From a virus: 64,000 nucleotides of DNA. The stretch is taken from the IMG/VR virus record IMGVR_UViG_3300025849_000009; one strand, written 5' to 3'. The notes beneath the pieces are model-generated. The model worked only from the letters and a program-made list of their open reading frames with translations. It was not told where the DNA came from and ran no database searches. Within the stretch, counting starts at the first letter, position 1. Each line of letters begins with the position of its first letter. The translations under genes were made by a program, and so were the position numbers. Positions 10,462 through 64,000 of this stretch are shown here, piece by piece.

Positions 10462-11748
10462 TTATTGTGGCATCTTTAAAAAGACTTTCATCGAATCAAC
10501 ATCAATTCTTGTAATCTGTACCGTAATAGGGTCGCCAGATTTAAAAACACTCATTACTTCTTCACTTAATTCACTAACATGTAGTAAACCAGTCACACCC
10601 TCTTCTATTGTGATAAATAATCCGTAATCCTTTTTAGTTTTAACGGTAGCTTCTATCACAGAAGGAATGTTATATCTAGAAGTAATATCTACCCATGGAT
10701 TAACAACTATATTTGCTTTTTGAGTTAATGTTATTTTAGTATTACTTATAATGTCTTTGACCATAAATGAAATTTCATCACCTGGCTTAATTTCTCTGGC
10801 CCTAAACTTAGTTAACGTGTCTTCGTCCAAATCATTATTATGAATCATACCAGTCAAACATTTATTAAATTCTACGAATACTCCATATTTTGCAGTACCT
10901 GTGACATTTCCAGTCACTGTTTCACCTTGTGTTTGTTTTAATTTTTCAATTTCTCCAGGTATTAAAGCTTGTAAATATTTTCTATGAGAAACTACTAACG
11001 TGCCTCTATCTGGTGAGAAACTAACAGGAACTACATACATTTCAGTTCCAATAATAGAACCAAAGTCATGTAGTTTATTAATTCCAGCTAAAGATCCTGG
11101 CATAAAACATTCTATACCTTGGACCATTACCATATAACCTCCATTTTCAATCATATTTGTAACTGTACCAACCCAAGCTGTGTTTCCTTCTTCAACTGCA
11201 GCTCTAAGATCCATAAACACTTTGTGTTTAACACCACCATTGATACTACCAACAACATGTGAGTTTTTACCCAACTGTGTAATTAGCACAGCTGTTTCAT
11301 CACCTGGTTTTAGCGATTGAATTTCGGCAGGTTCTTTATCATACTTAACGTAGATCAATTCTCTATAACCAATATCAATACTAATAAACTCAGAATTAAT
11401 GGCATAAATTTTACCTTCATGAATTTCTCCAGGATTAATTACAGTTAGTAATTGTCCTATGCTATTGTCATGTGCAGTAAGCATGTCATACATTTCTTGT
11501 GCATAAGTTTCTCTAGAGAATACTTTGTCACCGTTCTGTGTTTTGATATGTGGATTTGGTTTTCTTGTTCTTGACGGGCAAGTAGATTCATATGCATCCC
11601 ACATGAATTCCCCGTTCTCATCATAAAATGCTTGATTAGCATCTTCTTCTACTTCTTTGTTTTCGATTTTTACATCTAGTTCTTCAACTACGGTCTCTTT
11701 TGGTGTCTTTTCCCCAATTCTGATCCTTTTGTTTTTTTCGTTGTTCAT
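10462..11748 (-). CDS. rpsA: Ribosomal protein bS1-like, about 4 S1 domains
   Basis: S1 repeats 'GIECFMPGSL', 'LVVSHRKYL', 'KYGVFVEF...GMIHNNDL', 'DYGLFITIEEGVTGLLHVSEL'; N-terminal 'EFMWDAYES' resembles Bacteroidota bS1. Confidence 0.85.
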   Translation of the reverse strand: MNNEKNKRIRIGEKTPKETVVEELDVKIENKEVEEDANQAFYDENGEFMWDAYESTCPSRTRKPNPHIKTQNGDKVFSRETYAQEMYDMLTAHDNSIGQLLTVINPGEIHEGKIYAINSEFISIDIGYRELIYVKYDKEPAEIQSLKPGDETAVLITQLGKNSHVVGSINGGVKHKVFMDLRAAVEEGNTAWVGTVTNMIENGGYMVMVQGIECFMPGSLAGINKLHDFGSIIGTEMYVVPVSFSPDRGTLVVSHRKYLQALIPGEIEKLKQTQGETVTGNVTGTAKYGVFVEFNKCLTGMIHNNDLDEDTLTKFRAREIKPGDEISFMVKDIISNTKITLTQKANIVVNPWVDITSRYNIPSVIEATVKTKKDYGLFITIEEGVTGLLHVSELSEEVMSVFKSGDPITVQITRIDVDSMKVFLKMPQ

Positions 11749-45056: not shown

Positions 45057-46388
45057 TTATTTCTTTCTCATAAATGATACATTAATGTATCTTTTCCCAC
45101 TGTGTATTGGTCTGGCACCATGTTTATGTGTAATCATTCCTGGGTGAATGGTTGCAGTGCCCACTAATTTTGGATTTGATAATATTTTATATTTTGGAAA
45201 CCATGTACCGCCTCCATCAAACTCATCGTTTAATTTTACTACCATTGTAATATGACTAAAGTCGTGATGTAAACTTAAATGAGATTGTCTATCAGTAGTG
45301 TATCTTACCATAAAGTTTTCAGTATCCATATTGTCCCAACCTGCACCTTCTAATTCCCATAAATGTATACAAAGAGGAGAAACTATTTCTCTTACAACTC
45401 TATTATAAATATGATCTAATCCTATTTCTGGTAATAAGACATCGTTTGTTGGATAAAATTCGTGTCTGTCTTTTGTCCATTTATCCATAACTTCTGCCAA
45501 ACCTACGGCTTCTTTACAGAATTTTTCTGTAAATAATGGAAACTCATAAATATTATTTCCTATATCATCTACCATTAAATCATATTCACCCTTAGATACC
45601 GTTTCGTTTACATATTTTGATTTCCATGAATCCCAATCACTATCATCTAATATTTCGAAATATGGTTGTGTTTTCAATAAATTAATATTCGCATCATATG
45701 GTTCTGTCATAGATTGTTCATGCGGTCTATTTTGTTCTATCCAATTATCAACTGGAGCTATCGCTTTAAGTTTTGGTGGAAACAGTATATTAATATCTTG
45801 TCTTCTATGCTCTGTATATGTTGCTGTTAAGAATTCGTCGGGTGCAATTAGATTTTGTTTAAAGTTATAATCATTGACTAGTATTTTTGCAGTGTCTCTT
45901 TTAATTACATACGCGTGTGTATTATAACTACTAAGAGCTGTTACCCATTTATTACTTGCATCAATTCTTTTTTCATCCTTAGAACATATAGCATTTCTAC
46001 CTAAAAATGCAATATCCCATTCTGTATTTGGAATAACTGGATTTGTAAGCGGAGCTACTGAAACAAAATCATCTTCTAATATTAATGCACAATTGACATT
46101 GTTTTCTATTATATTGTTCCATATACTTAAGTGGCTAATTGCACAACCTGCTTCTCCACCAGTAACATCTCTTTTCCACCAATCATTCCATGAATCAGAT
46201 CCTAAATTCCATAAATCATATACACTATGTCCATCTAATAAATTACCTGAAGTTCCATCAAAACCTTGAACTATTTCCCATTCTACAGAATATGGCATAC
46301 CAAGTTGATCTACCCTGGTGGCAATGTTTCTCTGAATACTTGGATCTCCGGCATTCAAACTTATAATATAAATTTTATCTATTTTCAT
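45057..46388 (-). CDS. GT25 (procollagen galactosyltransferase-like) fused to PLOD-like 2OG-Fe(II) lysyl hydroxylase
   Basis: GT25 part: 'IYIISL', 'FDG', 'GEAGCAISH..IW', 'LILEDD', 'DEFL'. Oxygenase part: 'PTND', 'NFMVRY...Q..L.LHHD.S', 'GGGT.F', 'HPG.ITH.H......G.RYI.VSF'. Likely start M9. Confidence 0.85.
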   Translation of the reverse strand: MKIDKIYIISLNAGDPSIQRNIATRVDQLGMPYSVEWEIVQGFDGTSGNLLDGHSVYDLWNLGSDSWNDWWKRDVTGGEAGCAISHLSIWNNIIENNVNCALILEDDFVSVAPLTNPVIPNTEWDIAFLGRNAICSKDEKRIDASNKWVTALSSYNTHAYVIKRDTAKILVNDYNFKQNLIAPDEFLTATYTEHRRQDINILFPPKLKAIAPVDNWIEQNRPHEQSMTEPYDANINLLKTQPYFEILDDSDWDSWKSKYVNETVSKGEYDLMVDDIGNNIYEFPLFTEKFCKEAVGLAEVMDKWTKDRHEFYPTNDVLLPEIGLDHIYNRVVREIVSPLCIHLWELEGAGWDNMDTENFMVRYTTDRQSHLSLHHDFSHITMVVKLNDEFDGGGTWFPKYKILSNPKLVGTATIHPGMITHKHGARPIHSGKRYINVSFMRKK

Positions 46389-47404
46389 ATAGATTCTAAT
46401 ATGTTTTTCCAATCATATGATCTGGCATTCCATGTTTGTTGTTTAGACCATTTATAAGCATCATTAATTGATTTATCTTTAAGTCCACTACTTAGTGTAC
46501 CTAGTATTTGTATAACCTGATTCCAATTTGTTTCATTTCTTTCTAAGATAACTCCACTATTTACAGTCTCTTTTAATGCTGCTACCGTGGTAACAATAGG
46601 TAATACTTTGGCATATTGCATTTCAAGCGCAGTAATACAATATGTTTCTTCATAATCAGTTACATAGCACCAATATTCTGCACGTAACATTGCAGCGTGT
46701 AATGTTTCTTGATCTACTGTACCATGACACGTAACTTCTTCAAACTTATTAAATGAATAGTCAGTATGATTTGCTATAGAATAGCCTGGAGAATATATGT
46801 CTAATGTTGCATGTGGCATTATATCTTTTATCTTTGGCCAGTTTTTTAATAATTCTAATAAGCCACGTTCAGGTGCAGAACTATATATGAATTTACCTTT
46901 TATTTTTTCAGGAGTACCATTAAATGTCGAAGGATCAATGGCATTACCAATCACTGAGATTTTATTTAAAGGTATATTATATGTGTGTGCCCAATGATTC
47001 TTATGCCAGTTAGTCAAACAAATTGTATGATCAACTTGTTGTGTTAAAATGTTTGCGTCTCCTAACACTTTATGATTCCACCATGGGTGATGATGTGTAT
47101 TATGTGCCCAAAATACTTTCTTTGCTGAATACCCTTCAAACTCTTTTAGAAAATGGATATAACTTGCAGATATAATATAATCAAACTGATCAAAATATTT
47201 TTCATGAACAGTATGTGTTGATATCCATTCTACACCATCAATTAAACCAGAATCTTTTACTTCACCAGAAACCACAACCTTATAACCAAATTTAACTATC
47301 TCTTTAGCTATATTAATTATAGCAATTTCAGTTCCTGCTAATCCAATACTGGTATTGCTATCAAATTTGTTTTTTTGATAACCCGCATAAAATAATATTC
47401 TCAT
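46385..47404 (-). CDS. GT-B glycosyltransferase (GT4-like)
   Basis: 'GLAGTE', 'YSSAPERGL..LL', 'YEETYCITALE' (E-x7-E). Confidence 0.85.
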   Translation of the reverse strand: MRILFYAGYQKNKFDSNTSIGLAGTEIAIINIAKEIVKFGYKVVVSGEVKDSGLIDGVEWISTHTVHEKYFDQFDYIISASYIHFLKEFEGYSAKKVFWAHNTHHHPWWNHKVLGDANILTQQVDHTICLTNWHKNHWAHTYNIPLNKISVIGNAIDPSTFNGTPEKIKGKFIYSSAPERGLLELLKNWPKIKDIMPHATLDIYSPGYSIANHTDYSFNKFEEVTCHGTVDQETLHAAMLRAEYWCYVTDYEETYCITALEMQYAKVLPIVTTVAALKETVNSGVILERNETNWNQVIQILGTLSSGLKDKSINDAYKWSKQQTWNARSYDWKNILESI

Positions 47405-47452: not shown

Positions 47453-48364
47453 TTAGTTCTTATTTCTTTTAACTTTAGGTGGAGCGTCTATAAACCAACC
47501 CTTATAATATTCTCTTTTTTCATAGATATAATTCATGTAATCATCCACTTTGCCCTTCCAATCTTCATCAATTGCTGGATTTATAATTCCAGATTTGTAA
47601 CTAGAAAAAACCTGATTAATCCATTCTGCACCGCTTTCTTTATTATCATAAAGACTAGAGTTTATAGTATAAAAAGATCCTCTGCTTATATTATTCCACA
47701 CATCCATTGGATAAACTTCTTTTTCAAGAACAACAGAATATAATGCACTTTCACTAATGTGTGTACTATATACTGTTTTAGCTTTTTGTAAAAAGTAATA
47801 AAGATCTATGTCTCTTGGTAAAATAGATTCTTCACCAAATAAATCTTTAATTTCACCTATAACTGCATGTGTAGTAATAGGATGTGGTTTAAAATAAACA
47901 TCACCTTTATGTTTCTCAGCAACTTCAATTAATTTATTTAAACAACAATTTTCTTTAAGCTTATTTGAACCTGGTAAAATAACCAAAGTGCTTTTATCTT
48001 CATATCTGTCGAAATCTTTCTTGCGATTTTGATATTTATTAGCTTGATCTTTTTCGATATTTTCTTTAAAGTAAGATACCCAATCATAGACGTGTTCGAC
48101 ATCATGTACTAAAGCATCAGCAATTTGTTCTCTTCTCATTTTGAGATTTAGTGGTTGCATTAAAAAACAAGTAGCATATTCTGTATATCCCATTGTTTTA
48201 AAGTACGGCATTTCTTCTGCTATAACATCATAACTGTGTTCTAATCCAAGTTCTCTACATTTTCTTAAAACATATCGTTCCACTTGTTCGAGTGGTTCTA
48301 GTTTTGTATTTTTCTTTAGAGGCCCAATTCTTTCATTTAGCACCTTTTTGTTAAACATTTCCAT
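47453..48364 (-). CDS. Putative GT-B glycosyltransferase (KpsS/sialyltransferase-like HP motif)
   Basis: 'LVILPG', 'VYFKPHP', 'V.STH.SESALY..L.K.V'. Confidence 0.55.
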   Translation of the reverse strand: MEMFNKKVLNERIGPLKKNTKLEPLEQVERYVLRKCRELGLEHSYDVIAEEMPYFKTMGYTEYATCFLMQPLNLKMRREQIADALVHDVEHVYDWVSYFKENIEKDQANKYQNRKKDFDRYEDKSTLVILPGSNKLKENCCLNKLIEVAEKHKGDVYFKPHPITTHAVIGEIKDLFGEESILPRDIDLYYFLQKAKTVYSTHISESALYSVVLEKEVYPMDVWNNISRGSFYTINSSLYDNKESGAEWINQVFSSYKSGIINPAIDEDWKGKVDDYMNYIYEKREYYKGWFIDAPPKVKRNKN

Positions 48365-48438: not shown

Positions 48439-48469
48439 CAAAAAAAAAGCATACCTAAGTATGCTTTTT
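48439..48469 (-). terminator. Intrinsic terminator after the Thr-rich gene pair
   Basis: AAGCATAC-TTAG-GTATGCTT plus T-run. Confidence 0.85.
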
Positions 48470-48487: not shown

Positions 48488-51310
48488 CTAGTTACCATTA
48501 TAACTGTTTACTCTCCATTGTCTATTTGTATTATAAACATCTAGTGGTTCGTTAGTTGAATACCAAGTTTCTTGTACTTCGTAATCTGTACTCCACGTTG
48601 TAGTAATAGCACTTGTTGTAGATCTCGTTGTGTTCCACGTTGTTGTTGTGTTCCATGTGGTATTCCACGAAGTAGTAACACTATAGATAGTTGACCATAT
48701 AGTCGTTGTCGATTTAGATGTCGCTGCATTTGTATTAAATGTAGTCGTAGTTGATCTAGTCGTATTAAATGTGGTCGTAGTCGAGTGGCTTGTATTAAAT
48801 GTAGTCGTAGTCGTTTTAGACGTTGTTTGAGACGTATTAAATGTTGTCACCCATGATGTAGTCCATGAAGTTGTCGTTGACTGATTAGTATTAAACGTTG
48901 TCAACCAAGTTGTATTAAATGTAGTTATAGTTGACTTACTAGTTTGATATTGTGTAGTCCACGATGTTGTACGTGTATAGTTTGTAATTCTACTAGTTTC
49001 CCAAGTTGTTGTCCATGCAGTTGTCGTCGCATGTTCTGTTCCCCTATTAGTTCCTCTGGATGTACTCCATATAGTTACTGTCGAATGAGACGTTCCATGA
49101 TTCGTAGACTGGGACGTATTAAACGTAGTCGTAGTTGAATGCTCTGTTGACCTAGTTGTATTCCATGAAGTAGTCCATGAAGTATTGAACGTAGTTACTG
49201 TAGATTTACTTGTTGACCATGTTGTTGTAAACGTAGTCGTTGTTGAATGTTCTGTTCCTCTAGTCGTGTTCCATGAAGTTGTCCATGATGTATTGTAAAC
49301 TGTAGTCGTTGCTCTAGTCGTATTCCATGATGTGTTAAAAACTGTAGTAGTCACATGCTCTGTTCCTCTAGTCGTGTTCCATGAAGTTGTCCATGAGGTA
49401 GTATAACTCGTCGTCGTAGCTCTACTAGTTGACCATGTTGTATTAAATGTAGTTGTTGTAGATTTAGTCGTTGACTGATTAGTATTAAACGTCGTTGTCC
49501 ATGAGGTAGTATAACTCGTCGTCGTAGCTCTACTAGTTGACCACGTTGTATTAAATGTAGTTGTTGTAGATTTAGTCGTTGACTGATTAGTATTAAACGT
49601 TGTCACCCACGAAGTAGTCCACGAAGTTAACGTTGTTTTAGTTGTGTTCCATGTTGTGTTATAAACCGTAGTAGTTGACCTAGAAGTTGACTGATTTGTA
49701 TTAAAAGTAGTAGTCGTTGTTCTAGAAGTAGATCTCTTTGTATTTCGCGATGTTATCCAAGTAGTATTAAATGTTGTCGTAGTCGATTTGCTAGTTGACC
49801 ACGCTGTATTGTAAACTGTTGTTGTGGTTTTATTCGTGCCTCTGGTTGTGTTCCATGAGGTAGTCCACGAAGTAGTCCACGAAGTTAGCGTTGATTTAGT
49901 TGTGTTCCATGATGTGTTATAAACCGTAGTAGTTGACCTAGAAGTTGACTGACTTGTATTAAATGTTGTCGTAGTCGATTTACTAGTTGATCTAGTTGTA
50001 TTTCTTGATGTTGACCAGGTTGTCGTAAATGTTGTCGTAGTCGATTTACTTGTTGACTGGCTTGTATTAAAAGTTGTAGTTGTAGATTTATTAGTTCCTC
50101 TACTAGTTCCTCTTACGGTGTTCCATGAAGTTGTCCATGTAGTTACAGTGGATTTGCTAGTTGACTGACTTGTATTAAAAGTTGTCGTTGTTGCTCTAGT
50201 TGTGTTCCATGTCGTTGTAGTAGATTTACTAGTTGACCATGTTGTAGTCCAATTAGTTGTAGTAGATTTACTAGTTATAAACGTCGTTGTAGTAGATTTA
50301 CTAGTTGCAAATGTAGTAGTAGTTGAATGTTCCGTTGATCTACTAGTTATAAATGTTGTTGTAGTAGATTTAGACGTATTAAACGTAGTCGTTGTCGATT
50401 TACTAGTTGCCCATGTAGTCGTGGTTGCACGCGTTGTATTCCTATGAGTTGCAAATGTAGTTGTAGTAGATTTAGACGTATTAAACGTAGTCGTTGTTGA
50501 TTTACTAGTTGCCCACGTAGTCGTGGTTGCACGCTCCGTTGACTGACTTGTACTAAATGTAGTCGTTGTTGATTTACTAGTTGCCCATGTAGTCGTGGTT
50601 GCACGCGTTGTATTCCAAGATGTATTATATACAGTCGTTGTTGTTTTAGTTGTGTTCCACGTCGTTGTAGTTGCGCGTGATGTATTCCATGTAGTCGTGG
50701 TTGCACGCTCCGTTGACTGACTTGTACTAAATGTGGTCGTGGTTGCACGTGTTGTATTAAATGTTGTTGTGGTTGCACGTGTTGTATTCCACGAAGTAGT
50801 CCACGAAGTTAGCGTTGATTTAGTTGTATTGAACGTCGTCGTCGTAGCTCTAGTTGTATTCCAAGATGTATTGTATACGGTCGTGGTTGCACGCGTTGTG
50901 TTATACGTAGTCGTGGTTGCACGTGTTGTATTAAATGTTGTTGTTGTCGCCCTAGATGTAGATTGACTTGTATTCCACGACGTCGTAGTCGCCTTAGACG
51001 TATTCCACGTCGTCGTAGTCGCCCTAGACGTATTCCACGTCGTCGTAGTCGTCTTAGATGTACTCTTACTTGTATTATATGTCGTCGTCGTATTTTTATC
51101 TGTGAACCATGACGTCGTAACTTTAGTTGACCACCCCGTTGAAGTAGATTTATCTGTAAGTACATTCCAATAGGTAGTTTTTGCCGTATTCCTAGAAGTT
51201 GCCCTATTATATGACGTGTATAATGAAGTTGTTCGAGAATAACTAGTCGTCTTCAACGTGCTCCTAGATCCGGCGGTTAACCAAGTAGTATTAAAAAAAG
51301 TAGTAGGCAT
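48488..51310 (-). CDS. Thr/Ser-repeat fibre protein A (940 aa); antiparallel complement of protein B
   Basis: Quasi-repeat units of 10/14/18/22 aa (e.g. TTTTFNTSKS), each with aromatics first and K/R/Q/H after. Confidence 0.85.
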   Translation of the reverse strand: MPTTFFNTTWLTAGSRSTLKTTSYSRTTSLYTSYNRATSRNTAKTTYWNVLTDKSTSTGWSTKVTTSWFTDKNTTTTYNTSKSTSKTTTTTWNTSRATTTTWNTSKATTTSWNTSQSTSRATTTTFNTTRATTTTYNTTRATTTVYNTSWNTTRATTTTFNTTKSTLTSWTTSWNTTRATTTTFNTTRATTTTFSTSQSTERATTTTWNTSRATTTTWNTTKTTTTVYNTSWNTTRATTTTWATSKSTTTTFSTSQSTERATTTTWATSKSTTTTFNTSKSTTTTFATHRNTTRATTTTWATSKSTTTTFNTSKSTTTTFITSRSTEHSTTTTFATSKSTTTTFITSKSTTTNWTTTWSTSKSTTTTWNTTRATTTTFNTSQSTSKSTVTTWTTSWNTVRGTSRGTNKSTTTTFNTSQSTSKSTTTTFTTTWSTSRNTTRSTSKSTTTTFNTSQSTSRSTTTVYNTSWNTTKSTLTSWTTSWTTSWNTTRGTNKTTTTVYNTAWSTSKSTTTTFNTTWITSRNTKRSTSRTTTTTFNTNQSTSRSTTTVYNTTWNTTKTTLTSWTTSWVTTFNTNQSTTKSTTTTFNTTWSTSRATTTSYTTSWTTTFNTNQSTTKSTTTTFNTTWSTSRATTTSYTTSWTTSWNTTRGTEHVTTTVFNTSWNTTRATTTVYNTSWTTSWNTTRGTEHSTTTTFTTTWSTSKSTVTTFNTSWTTSWNTTRSTEHSTTTTFNTSQSTNHGTSHSTVTIWSTSRGTNRGTEHATTTAWTTTWETSRITNYTRTTSWTTQYQTSKSTITTFNTTWLTTFNTNQSTTTSWTTSWVTTFNTSQTTSKTTTTTFNTSHSTTTTFNTTRSTTTTFNTNAATSKSTTTIWSTIYSVTTSWNTTWNTTTTWNTTRSTTSAITTTWSTDYEVQETWYSTNEPLDVYNTNRQWRVNSYNGN

Positions 51311-51385
51311 TCTCTATCTCTGTTGTTTTTTTATATATTTAAATTCTTTAATCATTTTATTTCTTAAAAAGTCTCTTAGTACTAC

Positions 51386-54300
51386 TTACCAAGCACAATC
51401 ACGCTCAGAATAACATATAGAACGAAAATCGCAATAATCTTCTGGACTACACAGTTGTTCTTTGTTATTATGTGTTAAAATTCCATTTGCAAAGAATGTA
51501 TCATTAGGTTCTACATCTAATTTATAAACAGTATATTGATTAACTTCATCTATTTCTAAAGATTCTATCAGAAATTCTCCATAATCCATTTTAAACATAA
51601 CATCACCAATCTCTAGGTGCTCCGCTAGTTTTGCTTGCCACATACCATCTCTTTTTATAATATGTATATGTGCCATGGTAGTTCTTAATTGGTCATTATT
51701 TATGCTAACTGTTCCTATAACGTCTGCTCTCCAAATACCGGAAACATTATGTTCATTAGATAATGTATTTGTGTATACTTCTTCTTCCCTAATTGTTGGT
51801 AATACAGTCATGTCATCTGTATTAAATGCTCCATCCATAGTTAAAATACTCTGGCCATGCACTAACGTTTCAACTGGTCTTTGTATTCCTTCAGCAATAT
51901 GTACTAGTGTTCCTTCAACTATACATTCCTCTATTGTGCTTCTAGATGTTCCACGAGATGTGTTGACATACAATGCTGTATTGTAACTTGTGATATATGA
52001 AACTGATGTATTCCAGGAAGTTATTTGCCCTGCACCACCACCTGAACTATTATCTGCAGGAACTAAAGTAATCCATGTTGTTGTTTTAGTTGTTGATCTA
52101 GAATATCCTGTAGAAACCTTTGTAATAGTTGACTTACTTGTATTTCTGTCAGTTACCCTAGAAGTTGCAAACCTAGTATTAGTAGATTTACTAGTTGCAA
52201 AAGTGGTCGTGTACGTCGTTGTCGTCGATCTACTAGTTGCAAATGTCGTTGTCGTCGATCTACTAGTTGCAAATGTTGTTGTTGTATTTCTACTAGTGAT
52301 CCAGTAAGTTGTCCATGCAGTTGTCGTCGATTTACTAGTTGACCAAGTTGTTGTTGTCGATCTACTAGTTGCAAATGTCGTTGTCGTCGTATGCTCTGTG
52401 CTTCTACTAGTACTAAATGTAGTCGTTGTAGATCTACTAGTTGCAAATGTTGTTGTTGTATTTCTACTAGTTCCTCGAGTCGTACCAAAAGTGGTCGTTG
52501 TTGATTTAGTTGTGTTGAACGTCGTCGTTGTTGACCTAGTTGTATTCCAAGATGTATTGTATACAGTCGTGGTTGCACGCGTTGTGTTCCAATTAGTTGT
52601 AGTAGATTTACTAGTAGCAAATGTTGTTGTGGTAGAATGCTCTGTGCCTCTACTAGTACTAAATGTAGTCGTTGTTGATTTAGTTGTGTTCCACGTCGTC
52701 GTCGTAGCTCTAGTTGTATTCCAAGATGTATTGAACACTGTAGTTGTAGACTGACTTGTATTCCATGTAGTCGTTGTTGATCTAGTTGTATTGTATACGG
52801 TCGTTGTTGATCTAGTTGTATTCCATGTTGTTTTAAATGTAGTCGTTGTAGACTGACTTGTATTCCATGTAGTCGTTGTTGATCTAGTTGTATTATATAC
52901 GGTCGTTGTTGATTTAGTTGTATTCCAAGATGTATTGTATACAGTCGTTGTTGCTCTAGTTGTGTTCCACGTCGTCGTTGTTGATCTAGTTGTGTTCCAT
53001 CGTGTTGTTGTTGACTTACTAGTAGACTGATTTGTGTTAAATGTTGTTGTCGTCGATTTACTAGTAGCAAATGTTGTTGTGGTAGATTTACTAGTTGACC
53101 ATGTTGTATTAAACGTAGTCGTTGTGTTTTTGGACGTTGATTTGGAAGTCAACACAGTTGTGTTCCATGAAGTTGTCCATGAAGTTGTAGTAGCTCTACT
53201 AGTTGACCACGTTGTATTAAATGTAGTTGTTGTAGATTTAGTCGTTGACTGACTTGTATTAAAGGTTGTACCAAATGTGGTTGTCCATGTAGTTGTCGTC
53301 GATTTACTAGTTGACCATGTTGTATTAAACGTAGTTGTTGTCGCATGCTCTGTGCTTCTACTAGTTACAAATGTTGTTGTTGTATTTCTACTAGTTGCTC
53401 TATTAGTTCCTCGACTTGTTACCCAAGTAGTTGTCCATGCAGTTGTTGTGGTGTGCGAAGTTGATTGACTAGTATTAAACGTAGTTGTTGTAGAACGATT
53501 CGTTGATCTAGTTGTATTCCATGAAGTAGTCCAAGCTGTGTCAAAAGTAGTAGTTGTAGATTTACTTGTTGACCATGTTGTTGTAAACGTAGTCGTTGTC
53601 GAATGTTCTGTTCCTCTACTTGTTACCCATGTTGTTGTGGTATTTTTACTAGTCGCCTTAGACGTTGATTTACTAGTAGACCAAGTTGTTGTCCATGTAG
53701 TTACTGTAGATTTACTTGTTGACTGACTTGTATTAAAAGTCGTTGTCGTAGATTTAGTAGTTGACCTAGAAGTTGACTTACTAGTTGACCAAGTTGTCGT
53801 AAATGTTGTTGTTGTTGATTTACTTGTTGACTGACTTGTATTAAAAGTTGTAGTTGTCGATTTACTAGTTACTTTACTTGTTGTTTGACTAGTGATCCAA
53901 GTTGTATTATATGTCGTTGTTGTCGAACGAGATGTTGATTGACTAGTACTAAACCTGGTCGTTGTTGAATGTTCAGTGCTTCTAGAAGTTATCTGAGATG
54001 TAATCCAAGTTGTATTATATGTAGTCGTTGTTGATCTAGATGTCGACTGATTTGTGTTAAATGTTGTTGTAGTACTACGATTAGTAGATCTTGTTGTCGT
54101 TTGACTAGTGATCCACGTTGTATTATACACTGTTGTTGTAGATCTATTAGTTGACCATGACGTTGTATATGTCGTAATATAAGAAGTTGTCGTTGATTTA
54201 CTTGTATTCCAAGAAGTTGTCCAATATGTAGTGTATGATGTAGTTGTACTTCTAGATGTGGATTGACTTGTGTTCCAGGTTGTTTCAACAGGATACAATG

Positions 54301-54736
54301 TGGATTGACTAGTTGTCCAACTAGTTGTCCATGTAGTAGTTGTAGCCCTCTCAGTTGATTGTGACGTGTTTTTAGAAGTCGACCATGTTGTTGTTGTAGT
54401 TCTATCAGTTTCTAAAGATGTTTCTCTAGAAGTGCTCCATGATGTAGTCCACGATGTTGTCGTTGATCTAGAAGTTGCATATACAGTATTAGTACTACGA
54501 GATGTATTGAAAGTTGTTGTTGTCGATTTACTAGTTGCCCATGTAGTGATCCATGTTGTCACCGTGGATTGACTAGTATTTCGTACTTTGTTAGTAGTTC
54601 TCGAAGTATTTCTATTTTCAGATGTAGTTTTGGAAGTAGCCCAAGTAGTATTCTTAGCTACGAGTGTACCCTTAGATGTATTCTGTGCACTTCCGGTACT
54701 CCAAAAGTCGATTCTTGAAAATCCTATATTCTTCAT
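51386..54736 (-). CDS. Thr/Ser-repeat fibre protein B (1116 aa) with C-terminal Hint domain and Cys-rich tail
   Basis: Same repeat grammar as A with unit order reversed; Hint at aa 938-1090. Confidence 0.85.
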   Translation of the reverse strand: MKNIGFSRIDFWSTGSAQNTSKGTLVAKNTTWATSKTTSENRNTSRTTNKVRNTSQSTVTTWITTWATSKSTTTTFNTSRSTNTVYATSRSTTTSWTTSWSTSRETSLETDRTTTTTWSTSKNTSQSTERATTTTWTTSWTTSQSTLYPVETTWNTSQSTSRSTTTSYTTYWTTSWNTSKSTTTSYITTYTTSWSTNRSTTTVYNTTWITSQTTTRSTNRSTTTTFNTNQSTSRSTTTTYNTTWITSQITSRSTEHSTTTRFSTSQSTSRSTTTTYNTTWITSQTTSKVTSKSTTTTFNTSQSTSKSTTTTFTTTWSTSKSTSRSTTKSTTTTFNTSQSTSKSTVTTWTTTWSTSKSTSKATSKNTTTTWVTSRGTEHSTTTTFTTTWSTSKSTTTTFDTAWTTSWNTTRSTNRSTTTTFNTSQSTSHTTTTAWTTTWVTSRGTNRATSRNTTTTFVTSRSTEHATTTTFNTTWSTSKSTTTTWTTTFGTTFNTSQSTTKSTTTTFNTTWSTSRATTTSWTTSWNTTVLTSKSTSKNTTTTFNTTWSTSKSTTTTFATSKSTTTTFNTNQSTSKSTTTRWNTTRSTTTTWNTTRATTTVYNTSWNTTKSTTTVYNTTRSTTTTWNTSQSTTTTFKTTWNTTRSTTTVYNTTRSTTTTWNTSQSTTTVFNTSWNTTRATTTTWNTTKSTTTTFSTSRGTEHSTTTTFATSKSTTTNWNTTRATTTVYNTSWNTTRSTTTTFNTTKSTTTTFGTTRGTSRNTTTTFATSRSTTTTFSTSRSTEHTTTTTFATSRSTTTTWSTSKSTTTAWTTYWITSRNTTTTFATSRSTTTTFATSRSTTTTYTTTFATSKSTNTRFATSRVTDRNTSKSTITKVSTGYSRSTTKTTTWITLVPADNSSGGGAGQITSWNTSVSYITSYNTALYVNTSRGTSRSTIEECIVEGTLVHIAEGIQRPVETLVHGQSILTMDGAFNTDDMTVLPTIREEEVYTNTLSNEHNVSGIWRADVIGTVSINNDQLRTTMAHIHIIKRDGMWQAKLAEHLEIGDVMFKMDYGEFLIESLEIDEVNQYTVYKLDVEPNDTFFANGILTHNNKEQLCSPEDYCDFRSICYSERDCAW
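51467..51925 (-). other. Hint (intein-like/BIL) autoprocessing domain
   Basis: Block A 'CIVEGTLV', block B 'TTMAH', block F/G 'VYKLDVEPNDTFFANGILTHN'; the +1 residue is Asn, not C/S/T. Confidence 0.85.
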
Positions 54737-54761: not shown

Positions 54762-57485
54762 TTACGCAAAATTTCCAATGTAGTTAACTAATACTGCGTC
54801 AACATCTATTATAATATATGATATAATAGATACTGCACCAGGAGTAGTTACCCATTGAATGTCAGCACCTGAGGGTGTTTTCATATAGGATGGTAATGCA
54901 TTGTATCCTGCACCTACACCATTATAGATTACTATAGTTCCAGATTGACCTACGTTGTCGTTACCTATGTTAGACATTGTAATATCAATTGATCCCGTTG
55001 CTGTAAATGCAAATGCGTCACCTTGATCAGGCTTAATGTCATAAACACCTCCAACACCGTTAACCGATATAATATCTCTTTTTAAAGCACCTGTTAAATA
55101 TAAATCATGATGCTCAACATTTGAATCTGTTTTTGTATGTTGATCCATTGCAGTTGCATAGGTATTAGAAGTACCAGTATTACCTTTTAAACCTGAAGAA
55201 CCTGAAGAACCACTTGATCCAGAAGATCCGTTAGTTCCATCAGTTCCTGAAGAACCTGAAGTTCCGTTTGTTCCTGAAGTTCCATTCGTTCCTGAAGTTC
55301 CATTCGTTCCTGAAGTTCCATTCGTTCCTGAAGAACCACTAGATCCACTTGAACCTGAAGTTCCGTTTGTTCCACTAGTTCCATCAGTTCCTGAAGAACC
55401 TGAAGTTCCGTTAGTTCCACTTGTACCGTCAGTTCCTGAACTTCCACTTGAACCTGAAGATCCGCTTGTACCATTCGTTCCACTTGTACCATTTGTACCA
55501 GACGTTCCATCAGTTCCTGAACTTCCACTTGATCCACTTGATCCTGAAGTTCCATCGGTTCCTGAAGTTCCGTTAGTTCCTGAAGTTCCATCAGTTCCTG
55601 AACTTCCACTTGAACCTGAACTTCCATCAGTTCCTGAAGAACCTGAACTTCCATTTGTTCCATTAGTCCCTGAAGAACCAGCTGGTCCTTGAATAGAACC
55701 GCCTCCAATCCAACCATCTGCTTGTGTAAATACCCAAAGAGAATCGTCTGATTGTACTATATATGCATCACCGTCAGAATTACCGCTTGTTGGTAAATTT
55801 GATGATGTAGCTACTTGTCCTTGCATTGAAACACCCCAACCTGGATTACCTTGTGCACCTGAAGATCCACTTGATCCAGAAGATCCACTAGAACCATCCG
55901 TTCCTGAAGAACCCGAACTTCCGTTTGTTCCATTCGTTCCACTTGTACCATTGATACCACTAGTTCCATCAGTTCCTGAACTTCCGTTTGTTCCACTTGT
56001 ACCGTCAGTTCCTGAAGAACCTGAACTTCCATTAGTTCCTGAAGTTCCATTCGTTCCTGAAGTTCCATTTGTTCCTGAAGTTCCATCAGTTCCTGAACTT
56101 CCACTTGAACCTGAAGATCCACTTGATCCGTTAGTTCCTGATGTTCCATTCGTTCCTGAAGTTCCATCAGTTCCTGAACTTCCATCAGTTCCTGAGCTTC
56201 CACTTGATCCGTCAGTTCCTGAAGTTCCATTCGTTCCTGAAGTTCCATCAGTTCCTGAAGTTCCATCAGTTCCTGAAGAACCGCTTGAACCCGAACTTCC
56301 ATTTGTTCCATCAGTTCCTGAACTTCCATTTGTTCCTGAAGTTCCATCAGTACCGCTTGTACCTGGAGCTCCTTTTTGTCCTTTAACACCGCTCGATCCA
56401 GAAGATCCGTTAGTTCCATTAATTGCTGGAGTTCCAGGAGCACCTTTAGCTCCGGTTGCACCAACGGGAATAGTAAAATCAAATTCAGCTGCAGTTGAGG
56501 TTCCAGTATTAGTAACACTTACTGGTGTATTTTCTAATCCAGTAGATACTGTTCCTACTGCAATTGTACCTGTAATTCCTGAAGATCCGCTTGAACCTGA
56601 ACTTCCGCTTGATCCATCAGTTCCTGATGTTCCAACATATACTACTCTACCTACAATTTCATTGCCATTTTGAGAATGAGTTAATATTAAATTATTTCCA
56701 GATAAAGTTGCTCCACTATAATTGTCACCTTTAACACCATCAACTCCACTTGTTCCATCCGTTCCTGAAGATCCACTAGAACCATCCGTTCCTGAAGTTC
56801 CGTTAGTTCCACTAGTACCATCAGTTCCTGAACTTCCACTTGATCCACTTGATCCTGAAGTTCCATCGGTTCCTGAAGTTCCGTTAGTTCCTGAACTTCC
56901 ACTTGAACCGTTTGTTCCCGAAGAACCTGAAGTCCCACTTACACCACTCGTTCCATCAGTTCCTGAACTTCCACTTGATCCATTTGATCCCGAGGTTCCT
57001 GATGTTCCAACATCACCAATAGGTTGAATAAACATAAATAAAGAATCATTATCACTAACATTATTCCAATTAGAACTTGAAATAGGTTGTAAGTTAAATG
57101 TTCTTTGTCCAGAAGCAGTTGTGTTTCCTGTTACATAGAATGATTTATTTGCATTACCATCAGTTGATTTTGCTAATACAATAATAGACTTATAACTATT
57201 AGATGAAGCGACTGCAGCATTTAATGTTACGGTTGCTGAACCACCTCTAGCATTAGTTTCACTTACAATTATTTTACTAGGATTACTAGGATTATCAAAC
57301 GCTAAATCACCAGAAGAAACTGTCGTGGGATTTGTTGCGTTATTATAAACATAAGGAAGTCCAAACGTATTTGGTAATTGTTGGTTTTCATACTTTCCGG
57401 TACTTGCATTATATGACAATACTTCACCAGTAGATGGAGAAGAAGATAAAAAGTCAAGTATTTGTTTTAATTTCAATTGAGACAT
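54762..57485 (-). CDS. Collagen-like fibre (Pro-poor G-T/S-X triplets) with interspersed knob domains
   Basis: Long GTS/GTD/GTN/GSS triplet tracts; knobs 'TIAVGTVSTG..VSVTNTGT..A.FDFTIP' and 'QGQVATSSNLP.SGN.DGDAYIV'. Confidence 0.85.
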   Translation of the reverse strand: MSQLKLKQILDFLSSSPSTGEVLSYNASTGKYENQQLPNTFGLPYVYNNATNPTTVSSGDLAFDNPSNPSKIIVSETNARGGSATVTLNAAVASSNSYKSIIVLAKSTDGNANKSFYVTGNTTASGQRTFNLQPISSSNWNNVSDNDSLFMFIQPIGDVGTSGTSGSNGSSGSSGTDGTSGVSGTSGSSGTNGSSGSSGTNGTSGTDGTSGSSGSSGSSGTDGTSGTNGTSGTDGSSGSSGTDGTSGVDGVKGDNYSGATLSGNNLILTHSQNGNEIVGRVVYVGTSGTDGSSGSSGSSGSSGITGTIAVGTVSTGLENTPVSVTNTGTSTAAEFDFTIPVGATGAKGAPGTPAINGTNGSSGSSGVKGQKGAPGTSGTDGTSGTNGSSGTDGTNGSSGSSGSSGTDGTSGTDGTSGTNGTSGTDGSSGSSGTDGSSGTDGTSGTNGTSGTNGSSGSSGSSGSSGTDGTSGTNGTSGTNGTSGTNGSSGSSGTDGTSGTNGSSGTDGTSGINGTSGTNGTNGSSGSSGTDGSSGSSGSSGSSGAQGNPGWGVSMQGQVATSSNLPTSGNSDGDAYIVQSDDSLWVFTQADGWIGGGSIQGPAGSSGTNGTNGSSGSSGTDGSSGSSGSSGTDGTSGTNGTSGTDGTSGSSGSSGSSGTDGTSGTNGTSGTNGTSGSSGSSGSSGTDGTSGTNGTSGSSGTDGTSGTNGTSGSSGSSGSSGTNGTSGTNGTSGTNGTSGTNGTSGSSGTDGTNGSSGSSGSSGSSGLKGNTGTSNTYATAMDQHTKTDSNVEHHDLYLTGALKRDIISVNGVGGVYDIKPDQGDAFAFTATGSIDITMSNIGNDNVGQSGTIVIYNGVGAGYNALPSYMKTPSGADIQWVTTPGAVSIISYIIIDVDAVLVNYIGNFA

Positions 57486-58180: not shown

Positions 58181-59392
58181 TTACTTATATAGATTTGTTT
58201 TCCAATCATATGTAGATCTTAGTTTATGATCCTTAATTCCCATTGTGGTTTCAATTAATTGTTTATATGTTTCTATTAAACCCTCGTTAAATACAGTATA
58301 TCTAGTTAAAACCCTTTCGCTATTTTCATTATATGCTTCTATGTTATTGTCATGATTTTCGATAGCCTGTTTAAGTTGTCGAGAACCCTGTCCAATTAAG
58401 TTACCATCATAATAATATCCGGCGTCCTTAATCATGTGTGCGTTATGTACTAGTGGAAACTGTAAATAGAGTGCGTCTAAGTATGAATAATTTAATGGAT
58501 TAGTATGTTGGTGTGCAATAACTACATCTGTTAATTGGGCCATAGCATCAATAGCTCTTAGTCTAGGGAGGTATGATAATTTATGATCTGTTGTTCCAGA
58601 TAATTTACATAATGAAAGGTGTGTTAATAAAGATTGATAATATTTGTTTTTTATAATGTCTTCACCACACATGATATTTAGTTTTTTAAATTTACCTCCT
58701 TTATTATAATAATCTTCTGCTATCAATAAATTTATAAAGTGCCATTTTTGTGTGCCAATATTGGGTTCAAAACATGCAATTTGTTTGTCTTTATTTTCTT
58801 TTCCAGGAACATACACTGGAACTGGTCTGTTTTCAATTATTGTCTTTGGATTATTATACACTTCACATGTTTTGTCTAAAAATACAGGATCCCATACAAA
58901 AGGAACGGGTCTTACTTTATTTACTGGTAAATTATGCATTACTCTATAATATTCAATATTATTTTCGCCCTGTTGTGGAACATACCACGCTTCGTCCAAT
59001 AATTGATTATATCCGGTAGCATCAGGTCCAATATTAAACATAGCACCCTCTAAATCATTCAGATAATTATTACCACAAATATATTTGACTACTTTTTTAC
59101 CATAACCTGTTTTCTTAAACTCCTCTATAGTTTTATCGCCGTAAGTTGCACCCAACCAAATCATAAGATCTGTATCTGCATACTTGTCATAGTAATCGTA
59201 TATTGGGAATTGTTCAATATCCCATGTTACTTTGTTCTCATAAGGAGCTTTGACTTCACTTGCATTTAATATGTATACATTATATCCTATTTCTTTCAAA
59301 GCTTTTAATAAATAAAGCGCATTTAGTTTTATACCATTTATCCAAAGACTTTCATTCTCTGATCCTAAACTTATAGTAATTCCTATATTCAT
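58181..59392 (-). CDS. DUF2827-like putative glycosyltransferase
   Basis: 'IGITI....SLW.NGI..N', 'CGNNY', 'VPFVWDP.FL', 'FEPNI...K', 'HQHTNPLNY.Y.DALY..FPLVHN'. Confidence 0.75.
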   Translation of the reverse strand: MNIGITISLGSENESLWINGIKLNALYLLKALKEIGYNVYILNASEVKAPYENKVTWDIEQFPIYDYYDKYADTDLMIWLGATYGDKTIEEFKKTGYGKKVVKYICGNNYLNDLEGAMFNIGPDATGYNQLLDEAWYVPQQGENNIEYYRVMHNLPVNKVRPVPFVWDPVFLDKTCEVYNNPKTIIENRPVPVYVPGKENKDKQIACFEPNIGTQKWHFINLLIAEDYYNKGGKFKKLNIMCGEDIIKNKYYQSLLTHLSLCKLSGTTDHKLSYLPRLRAIDAMAQLTDVVIAHQHTNPLNYSYLDALYLQFPLVHNAHMIKDAGYYYDGNLIGQGSRQLKQAIENHDNNIEAYNENSERVLTRYTVFNEGLIETYKQLIETTMGIKDHKLRSTYDWKTNLYK

Positions 59393-62796: not shown

Positions 62797-64000
62797 TTAA
62801 AATTTAAATATTATAAATGCGTGAGCTTCTTTAGTTGTTTGACCGAATCCACCAGCATTTCTTACTGCATCGATATTACCCATACCTAAATCTAATTTAA
62901 TTTTAGCTGCACTAAAGTTAGTGAATAAATCAGTTGTAACTTGATTACCAATACTAAAACTAGATGAGTGCGCAGATTCTGTAATACCCTGTGCATAGAA
63001 TGATGCGTTGTTACCACCACCGTCTAAATGTGTTATAACATATCTTGAATTGTTGGCTTGATATGCATATACAAGGATTGCTTTCGGTGGTTGATTTTGA
63101 CCACTGAATGAAAATTCTTGATTATCACCAGCACGTGTTCCTATAGATGCGTTAGATGTTTCAAATACACCTGATCCACTTGGATCGATAAATTCACACC
63201 CACCTAAAGCTTGCGATGCAGTGTATTCTGCTCTTACACAATAATAAGTTCCACCTGATCCAGTTGCAACGTCTGACCATTCAACTGCGTAATCAACATT
63301 TGAAGATTTAACAAGTGCTTGACCCGTTGTTCCTCCTCCTGCAATTCCAGATCCATTTGCTCCAGCTGCTCCTTCCGGCCCCTGTGGTCCTTCCGGTCCT
63401 TGCGGTCCGGTGGCTCCATTAGCTCCGTCAACTCCATCAATACCTGAAGTTCCGGCGTCACCTTGATCACCTTTAACTCCATTGATTCCAGATGTTCCAT
63501 TAACTCCTGAAGTTCCATTTGTTCCTGAAGTTCCGGCGTCACCTTGATCACCTTTAGCTCCATCAACTCCTGAAGTTCCATCAACTCCTGATGTTCCATC
63601 GTTTCCATCAACTCCTGAAGTTCCATTTGTTCCTGAAGAACCATCTGTTCCTGAAGTTCCAGCGTCACCTTGATCACCTTTAGCTCCGTCAACTCCTGAA
63701 GTTCCATCGTTTCCATCAACTCCTGAAGTTCCATTAACTCCTGAAGTTCCATTTGTTCCTGAAGTTCCAGCGTCACCTTGATCACCTTTAGCTCCATCAA
63801 TTCCAGATGTTCCGTCAACTCCTGAAGTTCCAGCATCACCTTGATCACCTTTAGCTCCATTAATTCCTGAAGTTCCAGCGTCACCTTGATCACCTTTAGC
63901 TCCATCAACTCCTGAAGTTCCATTTGTTCCTGAAGTTCCAGAAAGTCCTGAAGTTCCGTCGCTTCCGTCAACTCCATCAATACCTGAAGTTCCATCAACT
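62797..64000 (-). CDS. Collagen-like fibre, C-terminal part (starts beyond window)
   Basis: Frame reads ...VDGTSGIDG...GAKGDQGDAGTSG...GPQGPEG, then a globular C-domain ending AHAFIIFKF* (stop 62797-62799); not in ORF track. Confidence 0.85.
   Translation of the reverse strand, partial: VDGTSGIDGVDGSDGTSGLSGTSGTNGTSGVDGAKGDQGDAGTSGINGAKGDQGDAGTSGVDGTSGIDGAKGDQGDAGTSGTNGTSGVNGTSGVDGNDGTSGVDGAKGDQGDAGTSGTDGSSGTNGTSGVDGNDGTSGVDGTSGVDGAKGDQGDAGTSGTNGTSGVNGTSGINGVKGDQGDAGTSGIDGVDGANGATGPQGPEGPQGPEGAAGANGSGIAGGGTTGQALVKSSNVDYAVEWSDVATGSGGTYYCVRAEYTASQALGGCEFIDPSGSGVFETSNASIGTRAGDNQEFSFSGQNQPPKAILVYAYQANNSRYVITHLDGGGNNASFYAQGITESAHSSSFSIGNQVTTDLFTNFSAAKIKLDLGMGNIDAVRNAGGFGQTTKEAHAFIIFKF

What the first reader, a model, noticed from the sequence alone, without database searches (positions are those of the whole stretch)
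48488..54736. Two adjacent Thr-rich proteins are antiparallel 'reverse complements' of each other at the amino-acid level
SEEN: both proteins are built from units of 10, 14, 18 or 22 aa. Each unit has a TTTT-type spacer, then positions 4 residues apart holding aromatics (F/W/Y) first and K/R/Q/H after. Reading A (48488..51310) N->C against B (51386..54736) C->N, the irregular unit lengths match one-for-one over about 56 units and the residue classes are complementary. Examples (A vs B reversed): YKK vs KFY, WQR vs RWW, YWR vs HRF, WWRRK vs KKVWW, WWWRK vs RRRWW, WWFQK vs KKKWW, FQHH vs RWYY, WRRH vs KWWY. The register is constant at i(A)+j(B)=928, checked at both ends (A-W60:B-K868, A-R896:B-W32, A-W906:B-K22). 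It survives an irregular segment present in both chains (A ITNYTRTTS / B STLYPVETT). A hand count gives roughly 180 pattern positions with only a handful of exceptions. Both genes are on the same strand, so this is not a DNA inverted repeat; every unit gain or loss must have been matched in the partner. INFERENCE: A and B zip into a two-stranded antiparallel beta-ribbon held by cross-strand cation-pi/stacking pairs, reminiscent of the Trp/Arg ladder of thrombospondin repeats. At about 0.33 nm per residue it would be about 290 nm long, and the aperiodic pattern would enforce one unique register. I know of no described fibre of this type.
Basis: partly seen in the sequence, partly recalled or inferred. 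Interest (0 to 1): 0.98.

Follow-up and report, generated by a model that had tools for sequence, protein, structure and literature searches.

The report
Mirror-coded two-gene phage fibre duplex
Two neighbouring threonine-rich proteins of an uncultured contractile-tailed phage match residue by residue when one is read backwards (aromatic opposite basic, Thr opposite Thr), and relatives change both genes in step, which points to a very long two-chain zipper-like beta fibre that I found in no database or paper searched.

Summary
A (48488..51310, -) and B (51386..54736, -) have one ungapped antiparallel register, i+j=928. It gives 183 aromatic:(K/R/Q/H) pairs; the next offset gives 99 and unit-shuffled B gives 56±7 (z=17). 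In the core, one face of both chains holds only T:T (239) or aromatic:cation (177) pairs, with 10 exceptions in 426. Q pairs only with W, and H only with Y. There is no inverted DNA repeat.

About 28 distinct homologous gene pairs (paired span 216-1317 aa) each have their own dominant register. The cognate B is the best partner for 27 of 32 A chains, and the closest relative carries matched +24 and +10 insertions. One syntenic relative is a single fold-back chain, and phage DLP6-type proteins are self-complementary too.

The best reading is an A:B antiparallel beta-ribbon fibre, a split fold-back. B's end next to A's N-terminus carries a self-processing module: Hint here, Peptidase_S74 or a separate Hint-like protein in relatives. 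The S74 forms hint at trimers, so the oligomeric state is open. Structure prediction gave no confident model, and nothing physical is shown.

This scan noted the same design before on other DNA. No paper searched describes it.

The parts
52127..54685 (-). B chain, mirror-coded Thr-rich region (about residues 18-870), which pairs with A58-910 at i+j=928
54686..54736 (-). B N-terminal cap (residues 1-17, motif MKN[IL]GF..DFW), conserved in relatives
51926..52126 (-). B residues 871-937: irregular linker with a Gly-rich loop; the code decays here; ends at E937 just before the Hint Cys
51467..51925 (-). Hint (intein-like) self-processing domain of B, C938 to H1089-N1090, with T1020-x-x-H1023
51386..51466 (-). 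B C-terminal 26-residue tail with four Cys (1096, 1102, 1108, 1114), plus the stop codon
51311..51385 (-). 75-nt AT-rich spacer between B and A, with a purine-rich stretch before A's ATG
51140..51310 (-). A N-terminal cap (residues 1-57), weakly coded, lying at the same end as B's Hint domain
48581..51139 (-). A chain, mirror-coded Thr-rich region (residues 58-910)
48488..48580 (-). A C-terminal cap (residues 911-940) plus the stop codon; lies opposite B's N-terminus
48444..48469 (-). Terminator-like hairpin just after A, consistent with B and A being transcribed together
47453..48364 (-). Conserved 303-aa gene that always follows A in relatives (80 loci); function unknown
54762..57485 (-). 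Collagen-like fibre gene just upstream of B (context: fibre module)

Best explanation
A and B are the two halves of a heterodimeric fibre. They are transcribed together from a fibre module of an uncultured contractile-tailed phage. They associate antiparallel, residue i of A opposite residue 928-i of B, over about 850 residues as extended beta strands.

One face of the duplex carries the code. Rows of Thr:Thr alternate with rows in which an aromatic residue of one chain faces K/R/Q/H of the other (W with R/K/Q, F with R/K, Y with H/K/R). The other face is small, polar and variable. Each unit has aromatics first and cations last, so any unit fits a reversed unit of equal length. The aperiodic series of unit lengths (10, 14, 18, 22) then acts as a barcode that allows only A:B pairing in one register and disfavours A:A, B:B and slipped pairing.

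The pair is a split version of single-chain fold-back proteins found in relatives. The B C-terminus and A N-terminus sit where the turn would be. At that end B carries a Hint domain that most likely acts as a removable assembly cap, cutting itself off at E937|C938.

Shown here: the code, its uniqueness, its co-evolution, the fused relatives and the module exchange. Inferred: beta-ribbon geometry, cation-pi contacts, virion location, Hint cleavage and the oligomeric state.
For: There is a single register with 183 pairs against 99 for the next offset, and z=17 against unit shuffles. The alignment is gap-free over A66-910. The code sits on even positions only, and even-face pairs are T:T or aromatic:cation in 416 of 426 rows.

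Within-class specificity (Q-W, H-Y) was not part of any scoring scheme, yet it holds. In the window Q pairs with W 28/28 and H with Y 14/14. Across the family H pairs with Y in 86% of cases, and R and K have an aromatic partner in 98% and 95%.

Selection between the window and the L001 pair: even-face Thr codons show 64 synonymous and 0 non-synonymous differences, against 82/48 on the other face.

Co-evolution: the L001 pair (about 82% identical) has register 962. It carries a +24 insertion in A at about residue 279, matched in B at about residue 648 (928-279=649), and a +10 insertion in each chain; the site of the +10 in B is ambiguous in the alignment. Mixed pairs lose register in that region. 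About 28 distinct pairs with paired spans of 216-1317 aa each have a dominant register with no or few 1-3-residue shifts. The cognate B is the best partner for 27 of 32 A chains, and partner lengths correlate at r=0.94.

Fused forms: L010 has one 1297-aa ORF in the same synteny that is self-complementary about a turn near residue 647 (97 pairs). DLP6-type 'baseplate wedge subunit' proteins are self-complementary in their C-terminal 560 aa.

AlphaFold2 models of two fold-back relatives are low-confidence. They still place very long strands whose boundaries obey the predicted i+j (about 551 and about 303 against 551 and 301).

B's C-terminus carries Hint, Peptidase_S74, or a Cys tail plus a separate Hint-like ORF in different relatives. 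All of these are self-processing-type modules.
Against: No physical or structural evidence exists. Both AlphaFold2 models have mean pLDDT of about 40.

An isolated two-stranded ribbon 850 residues long has no precedent that I know of. The S74 modules in relatives suggest trimeric assemblies (PMC10579305).

The first ~57 residues of A and B871-937 do not follow the code. Virion association is inferred only from gene neighbourhood. The Hint match is below Pfam's gathering scores.
Confidence: 0.65

Rival explanations
1. The A:B pairing is real, but the functional unit is a trimer of duplexes. Three A and three B chains would form a six-stranded antiparallel needle-like fibre, analogous to the fold-back needle of T4 gp37.
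For: In a subgroup of relatives B ends in a Peptidase_S74 intramolecular-chaperone domain (L022: 23.4 bits against a gathering score of 22; L060 weaker). Such domains form homotrimers and are removed after fibre maturation (PMC10579305). The gp37 tip is a six-stranded antiparallel needle made by three chains (PMC9659904). The neighbouring fibre genes are collagen-like, and collagen-like fibres are trimeric.
Against: The window's own B carries a Hint domain, which implies no particular oligomer. There is no sequence similarity to gp37 or any other solved chain, and no HxH metal motifs in the repeats. Only one dominant register is seen, and no second A:B' register stands out. The variable face carries E, I, L and V as well as small residues, which fits poorly inside a narrow tube; this last point is inference.
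Confidence: 0.3
2. The Hint domain does more than cut itself off. Its thioester at E937 would be resolved by a nucleophile of A's N-terminus, or by the Cys-rich tail after Asn1090 cyclisation. This would close the two chains covalently into one fold-back hairpin, like the naturally fused relatives.
For: The register places B's cleavage site within a few residues of A's N-terminus. A fused single-chain form exists in the same synteny. The domain has Cys1, TxxH and a terminal His-Asn but no +1 Cys/Ser/Thr. From memory, this is the pattern of bacterial intein-like domains reported to ligate by aminolysis (Dassa et al. 2004); I did not check that paper here.
Against: Nothing tested here bears on the chemistry. 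The homologous Hint modules end other fibre-like proteins that have no A-like partner. In relatives the same position holds an S74 domain, which only cleaves.
Confidence: 0.12
3. A and B do not pair. Each is an independent Thr-rich, perhaps O-glycosylated, mucin-like or beta-solenoid protein, and the mirror relation is a by-product of repeat evolution.
For: Glycosyltransferase genes lie nearby. Both genes are tandem-repeat proteins that share forward DNA similarity.
Against: Forward paralogy cannot give a reversed unit order. Parallel A:B scores are at background. Matched indels, cognate specificity in 27 of 32 pairs and within-class partner rules are unexplained without contact. Even-face Thr is invariant at the protein level while its codons vary.
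Confidence: 0.03
4. The complementarity arises at the nucleic-acid level, through an inverted DNA repeat or mRNA:mRNA pairing.
For: None was found.
Against: There are no opposite-strand HSPs between the genes. Both genes are on the same strand. Thr opposite Thr cannot arise from reverse-complemented codons (direct reading of the genetic code). Synonymous codons vary freely.
Confidence: 0.01

Closest known systems
Needle domain of the T4 long-tail-fibre tip gp37 (Bartual et al. 2010, as described in PMC9659904)
   Same: A phage fibre built from long antiparallel beta strands in which the chain runs out and folds back. This is the same topology as the fused relatives (L010, DLP6-type) of which A/B is the split form.
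   Different: gp37 is one gene and a homotrimer, with about 100 residues per arm and, as I recall it, His-bound iron in the core. Here there are two genes, about 850 residues per arm, an aromatic:cation/Thr:Thr code and no HxH motifs. No sequence similarity was found.
Trp-Arg ladder of thrombospondin type-1 repeats (from memory, not checked here)
   Same: Aromatic and basic side chains of neighbouring antiparallel strands alternate on one face.
   Different: A TSR is a ~60-residue three-stranded domain with disulfides and a WxxW spacing. Here there is no Cys in the repeats, no WxxW, a spacing of 4, two separate chains and hundreds of rows.
Tryptophan-zipper hairpins and single-layer beta sheets such as OspA (from memory)
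   Same: A two-stranded or single-layer sheet stabilised by cross-strand pairs of large side chains on one face, with Thr-rich strands.
   Different: Those span 12-50 residues and use Trp:Trp pairs. This would be about 850 residues long, heterodimeric and register-coded.
C-terminal self-processing modules of phage fibres: Peptidase_S74 intramolecular chaperone (PMC10579305) and Hint/bacterial intein-like domains
   Same: B's C-terminus carries such a module (Hint here, S74 in relatives) at the end where assembly could nucleate.
   Different: Known intramolecular chaperones serve homotrimeric triple beta-helices. Here the module sits at the junction of two different chains.
Self-complementary C-terminal half of the 'baseplate wedge subunit protein' of Stenotrophomonas phage vB_SmaS-DLP_6 (P0011) and its metagenomic homologues
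   Same: The same Thr-every-fourth-residue frame and aromatic:Arg mirror code, weak sequence similarity to A (E 5e-20), and a fold-back about one turn.
   Different: It is a single chain fused to a baseplate-wedge N-terminal domain, with arms of about 260 residues. No paper I found describes this feature.

Membership tests
Hint / intein superfamily (B residues 938-1090) | N-terminal nucleophile (Cys/Ser) at the first position of the domain | tested here: met
   C938 follows E937, aligned with the Cys after a poly-Gly linker in homologous modules P0004, P0006 and P0008.
Hint / intein superfamily (B residues 938-1090) | Block B TxxH motif | tested here: met
   T1020-M-A-H1023; this region aligns to an intein chain, 9hth_A.
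Hint / intein superfamily (B residues 938-1090) | Score above the curated Pfam threshold | tested here: not met
   Hint_2 scores 18.0 bits (cut-off 28.4) and Intein_splicing 18.1 (cut-off 35.8). The homologue P0006 carries precomputed PF14890.
Splicing inteins | C-terminal His-Asn followed by a +1 Cys/Ser/Thr | tested here: not met
   H1089-N1090 are present, but +1 is Asn (Lys in L001). This makes it an intein-like cleaving domain, not a canonical splicing intein.
Peptidase_S74 intramolecular chaperone | Pfam match at B's C-terminus | tested here: not met
   It is absent from the window's B and present only in relatives (L022: 23.4 bits against 22).
T4 gp37-type needle domain | Sequence similarity to gp37 and HxH metal-binding repeats | tested here: not met
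   A has no PDB sequence match at E<=1. There is no HxH in the repeat regions.
T4 gp37-type needle domain | Homotrimer of fold-back chains | not testable with these tools
   The oligomeric state is unknown; only the S74 hint in relatives bears on it.
Thrombospondin type-1 repeat | WxxW motif with conserved disulfides | tested here: not met
   A has 0 WxxW and 0 Cys; B's Cys residues all lie outside the repeats.
Mirror-coded Thr-rich phage fibres (provisional family defined here) | One dominant antiparallel register with aromatic:cation and T:T rows on one face, and matched indels among relatives | tested here: met
Collagen-like phage fibres | Gly-X-Y repeats | tested here: not met
   A and B have no Pfam Collagen hit; the upstream gene has one.

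The most novel reading that the evidence does not exclude
Phages have evolved a protein analogue of a nucleic-acid duplex. Two polypeptides pair residue by residue through a small pairing alphabet (W:R/K/Q, F:R/K, Y:H/K/R, T:T), with an aperiodic unit-length barcode setting a unique register. The result would be hetero-specific beta ribbons from about 70 to over 400 nm long (if fully extended) whose length evolves by matched insertions in two genes. Split, fused and self-processing-capped versions are interchangeable.
Probability: 0.55. Interest if true: 0.95.

Novelty: categorically new. Interest (0 to 1): 0.9.

Why it matters
If the pairing is physical, this would be a fibrous-protein architecture with no solved or described counterpart that I could find. 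It would be a sequence-addressable, register-specific beta duplex hundreds of nanometres long.

It would add a new kind of appendage to phage virion biology, in abundant uncultured phages and in at least one cultured phage (DLP6).

It would give protein design a natural rule set for long hetero-specific beta pairing. It also poses an evolutionary puzzle: how are insertions in two genes, or two arms, kept matched?

The findings also show that current structure predictors and family databases do not recognise this class.

Tried and rejected
- **Complex prediction** on matched fragments A400-560 + B368-528 gave no verdict (ipSAE 0.00, partner pLDDT under 50). It counts neither for nor against binding.
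- **AlphaFold2** on a DLP6-type fold-back region with a 17-sequence alignment (pLDDT 40) and on the L010 turn fragment without an alignment (pLDDT 38) gave no usable 3D model. Only the strand boundaries are cited, so no fold search was run on them.
- **Family and structure libraries:** Pfam and PHROGs give nothing for the repeat regions. PDB sequence searches give nothing for A or P0011. The ESM Atlas returns only unnamed viral clusters.
- **Phage collection:** megablast of the neighbourhood and tblastn of the Hint region found nothing. The 303-aa neighbour has only ~25%-identical hits in Caulobacter and Vibrio phages.
- **Own assembly:** it is not held, and the nearest record, G001 (24 kb), lacks the genes.
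- **Column-wise compensatory-substitution counts** between the window and its close relatives were ambiguous, because MAFFT alignments of the repeats are unreliable: about 7 double changes against about 10 single-sided ones. I rely instead on register and cognate-specificity tests.
- **The end segments** A1-57 / B871-937 show no convincing alternative register.
- **Papers:** the phiKZ atlas (PMC13250141) and the phiCbK genome paper (PMC3556154) were read for a possible known counterpart and contain none. Five literature searches found no description of this design.
- **Rejected explanations:** an inverted DNA repeat and forward paralogy.


Full report
**1. What is there.** The region holds two adjacent ORFs on the minus strand. 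B (51386..54736, 1116 aa) lies upstream and A (48488..51310, 940 aa) downstream. They are separated by 75 nt, and a terminator-like hairpin follows A. A is 44% Thr and 15% Ser.

The neighbourhood is a fibre module. A 907-aa collagen-like protein with tail-fibre PHROG matches lies just upstream. A conserved 303-aa protein, a GT4 glycosyltransferase and a GT25/2OG-oxygenase-like fusion lie downstream. Elsewhere the window encodes baseplate wedge and hub proteins and a helicase, so this is a contractile-tailed phage. No cultured phage is close, and the window's own assembly is not held.

I scored aromatic (F/W/Y) against K/R/Q/H for A versus reversed B at every offset. There is one dominant peak at i+j=928 with 183 pairs out of A's 212 pattern residues. 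The next offset scores 99. Antiparallel A:A and B:B reach 92 and 90, and the best parallel A:B score is 91.

Shuffling the order of B's units gives 55.6±7.4 (maximum 80 in 2000 trials; z=17). A gapped antiparallel alignment returns a single gap-free segment, A66-910.

The unit-length series of A read forward equals that of B read backward, unit for unit. It is aperiodic: mixed 10/14 units, then mixed 14/22, then 18,18.

**3. Finer structure of the code.**
- 182 of 188 pattern residues lie on even positions, and all unit lengths are even, so the code stays on one face over about 850 residues.
- On that face 239 rows are T:T (never Ser) and 177 are aromatic:cation. Only 10 of 426 rows are exceptions.
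- Partner choice is specific within classes. Q faces only W (28/28), H faces only Y (14/14), and F faces only R/K. No score I used rewards this.
- The other face is T/S/N/A/V/G/E, with N:S and N:E pairs.
- Between the window and its closest relative, even-face Thr codons show 64 synonymous and 0 non-synonymous differences. The other face shows 82 and 48. The coded face is therefore the constrained one, and the repeats are kept at the protein level.
- There is no opposite-strand DNA similarity between the genes.

**4. Co-evolution.** An IMG/VR contig (L001) carries a pair about 82% identical, with B1 of 1149 aa and A1 of 974 aa. It has its own single register, 962, with 185 pairs against 99 for the next offset.

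Relative to the window, A1 has a +24 insertion near A residue 279, and B1 has its +24 near B residue 648 (928-279=649). Each chain also has a +10 insertion, near A residue 197 and somewhere around B residues 730-780; the B site is ambiguous in the alignment. Mixed pairs (A:B1, A1:B) lose the register in exactly that part.

Using the conserved 303-aa neighbour as bait, I fetched 80 loci. They contain about 28 distinct Thr-rich gene pairs with paired spans of 216 to 1317 residues. Each has a dominant antiparallel register with no or only a few 1-3-residue shifts.

In an all-against-all test the cognate B is the best partner for 27 of 32 A chains. The exceptions are near-identical duplicates and one gapped pair. 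Partner lengths correlate at r=0.94.

Over the family, R and K face an aromatic residue in 98% and 95% of cases, and H faces Y in 86%. More distant pairs add Y:K, W:T, Y:T and E:T rows.

**5. Fused relatives.** In the same synteny, L010 has one 1297-aa ORF with a B-type N-terminus and an A-type C-terminus. Its two halves are complementary about a turn near residue 647, with 97 pairs.

Independently, A's best database hits are ~1288-aa 'baseplate wedge subunit' proteins, from Stenotrophomonas phage DLP6 and metagenomic homologues. Their C-terminal ~560 residues are self-complementary about one turn, and each homologue has its own register. The two-gene form is thus a split fold-back.

**6. The end module.** At register 928, B's C-terminal region lies beside A's N-terminus. 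There B carries a Hint-type domain: C938, T1020-x-x-H1023 and H1089-N1090, with no +1 nucleophile. Its Pfam scores are below threshold, and it is 32-36% identical to terminal Hint modules of other fibre-like proteins. A four-Cys tail follows.

Relatives use other modules at the same position:
- a fused Peptidase_S74 intramolecular chaperone, followed by a 188-aa methyltransferase-like ORF;
- a short Gly-rich tail ending C-x-R-G-C-x, followed by a separate 345-366-aa methyltransferase plus Hint-like protein that lacks the Cys1 and His-Asn.

S74 chaperone domains form homotrimers and are cut off after fibre maturation (PMC10579305). I therefore read the module as a removable assembly cap, and I treat the oligomeric state as open.

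**7. Structure prediction.** The complex prediction gave no verdict and is not counted either way. Both AlphaFold2 models of fold-back relatives have mean pLDDT of about 40. They nevertheless contain very long strands whose boundaries obey the predicted register. That is weak support only.

**8. Comparison with what is known.** There is no Pfam, PHROG or PDB match for the repeats, and no paper in five searches describes the design. The nearest structural analogy is the six-stranded fold-back needle of T4 gp37 (PMC9659904). The nearest chemical analogies are the TSR Trp-Arg ladder and tryptophan zippers, both recalled from memory. None shares sequence, scale, the two-gene arrangement or the barcode.

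Earlier notes of this scan report the same design on other DNA. I tested the phenomenon independently here. This report adds the specificity matrix, the selection analysis, the fused syntenic form and the three end-module architectures, including S74.

**9. Verdict.** Direct antiparallel pairing of A with B is the only explanation that accounts for the data. The beta-ribbon geometry is likely, while the oligomeric state, virion location and Hint chemistry are inferred. I rate it categorically new and of high interest.

Noticed in passing
L011:4233-5282 (also L007:4572-5672, L016:6595-7656, L038:7399-8436): Between B and A, many relatives encode a 345-366-aa protein. It has an N-terminal SAM-methyltransferase-like domain (Methyltransf_25, E 1.3e-4) and a C-terminal Hint-like domain that lacks the first Cys and the terminal His-Asn. 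In those loci B ends in a Gly-rich linker plus C-x-R-G-C-x, which resembles the missing first strand of the Hint domain. This may be a split or trans-acting processing system.
   Followed up: partly
L022:5178-5867 and L060:6548-7237: A subgroup of B chains ends in a Peptidase_S74 intramolecular-chaperone domain instead of Hint, followed by a 187-188-aa ORF with a weak spermidine-synthase/methyltransferase-like match.
   Followed up: partly
window 47453-48364 (-): A 303-aa protein with no family match is conserved (55-97% identity) directly downstream of A in 80 viral contigs. It has only ~25%-identical hypothetical proteins in Caulobacter and Vibrio phages. It could be an assembly or modification factor of the fibre.
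   Followed up: partly
window 45057-46412 (-) and 46385-47404 (-): A GT25 glycosyltransferase fused to a 2OG-oxygenase-like (OGFOD2-like) domain lies next to a GT4 glycosyltransferase, close to collagen-like genes. The combination suggests modification of the collagen-like or Thr-rich fibres.
   Followed up: no
window 54762-57485 (-); L011:1122-2399: The gene upstream of B is a 907-aa collagen-like protein in the window but a 425-aa non-collagen protein in L011. Both end in the same C-terminal domain (last residues ...VNY[IV]GNFA). A second collagen-like ORF runs off the window end at 62797-63999.
   Followed up: no
P0004, P0006, P0008 (metagenomic proteins): Homologous Hint modules (poly-Gly, then Cys ... 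FFANGILTHNAK) end 790-1190-aa FN3/BACON-type fibre-like proteins that have no Thr-rich repeats. The module appears to be a mobile C-terminal cap of phage-like fibres.
   Followed up: partly
P0020 (874 aa) and P0021 (675 aa): These proteins have globular N-terminal parts and short W/T-rich decamer runs like A's. In P0020 two runs flank a ~60-residue insert. No dominant self-register was seen.
   Followed up: partly
window 10462-11748 (-): A 428-aa phage protein ends in an S1 RNA-binding domain (E 1.5e-22).
   Followed up: no
window 58181-59392 (-): A DUF2827 protein (E 1.7e-77) lies within the fibre module.
   Followed up: no
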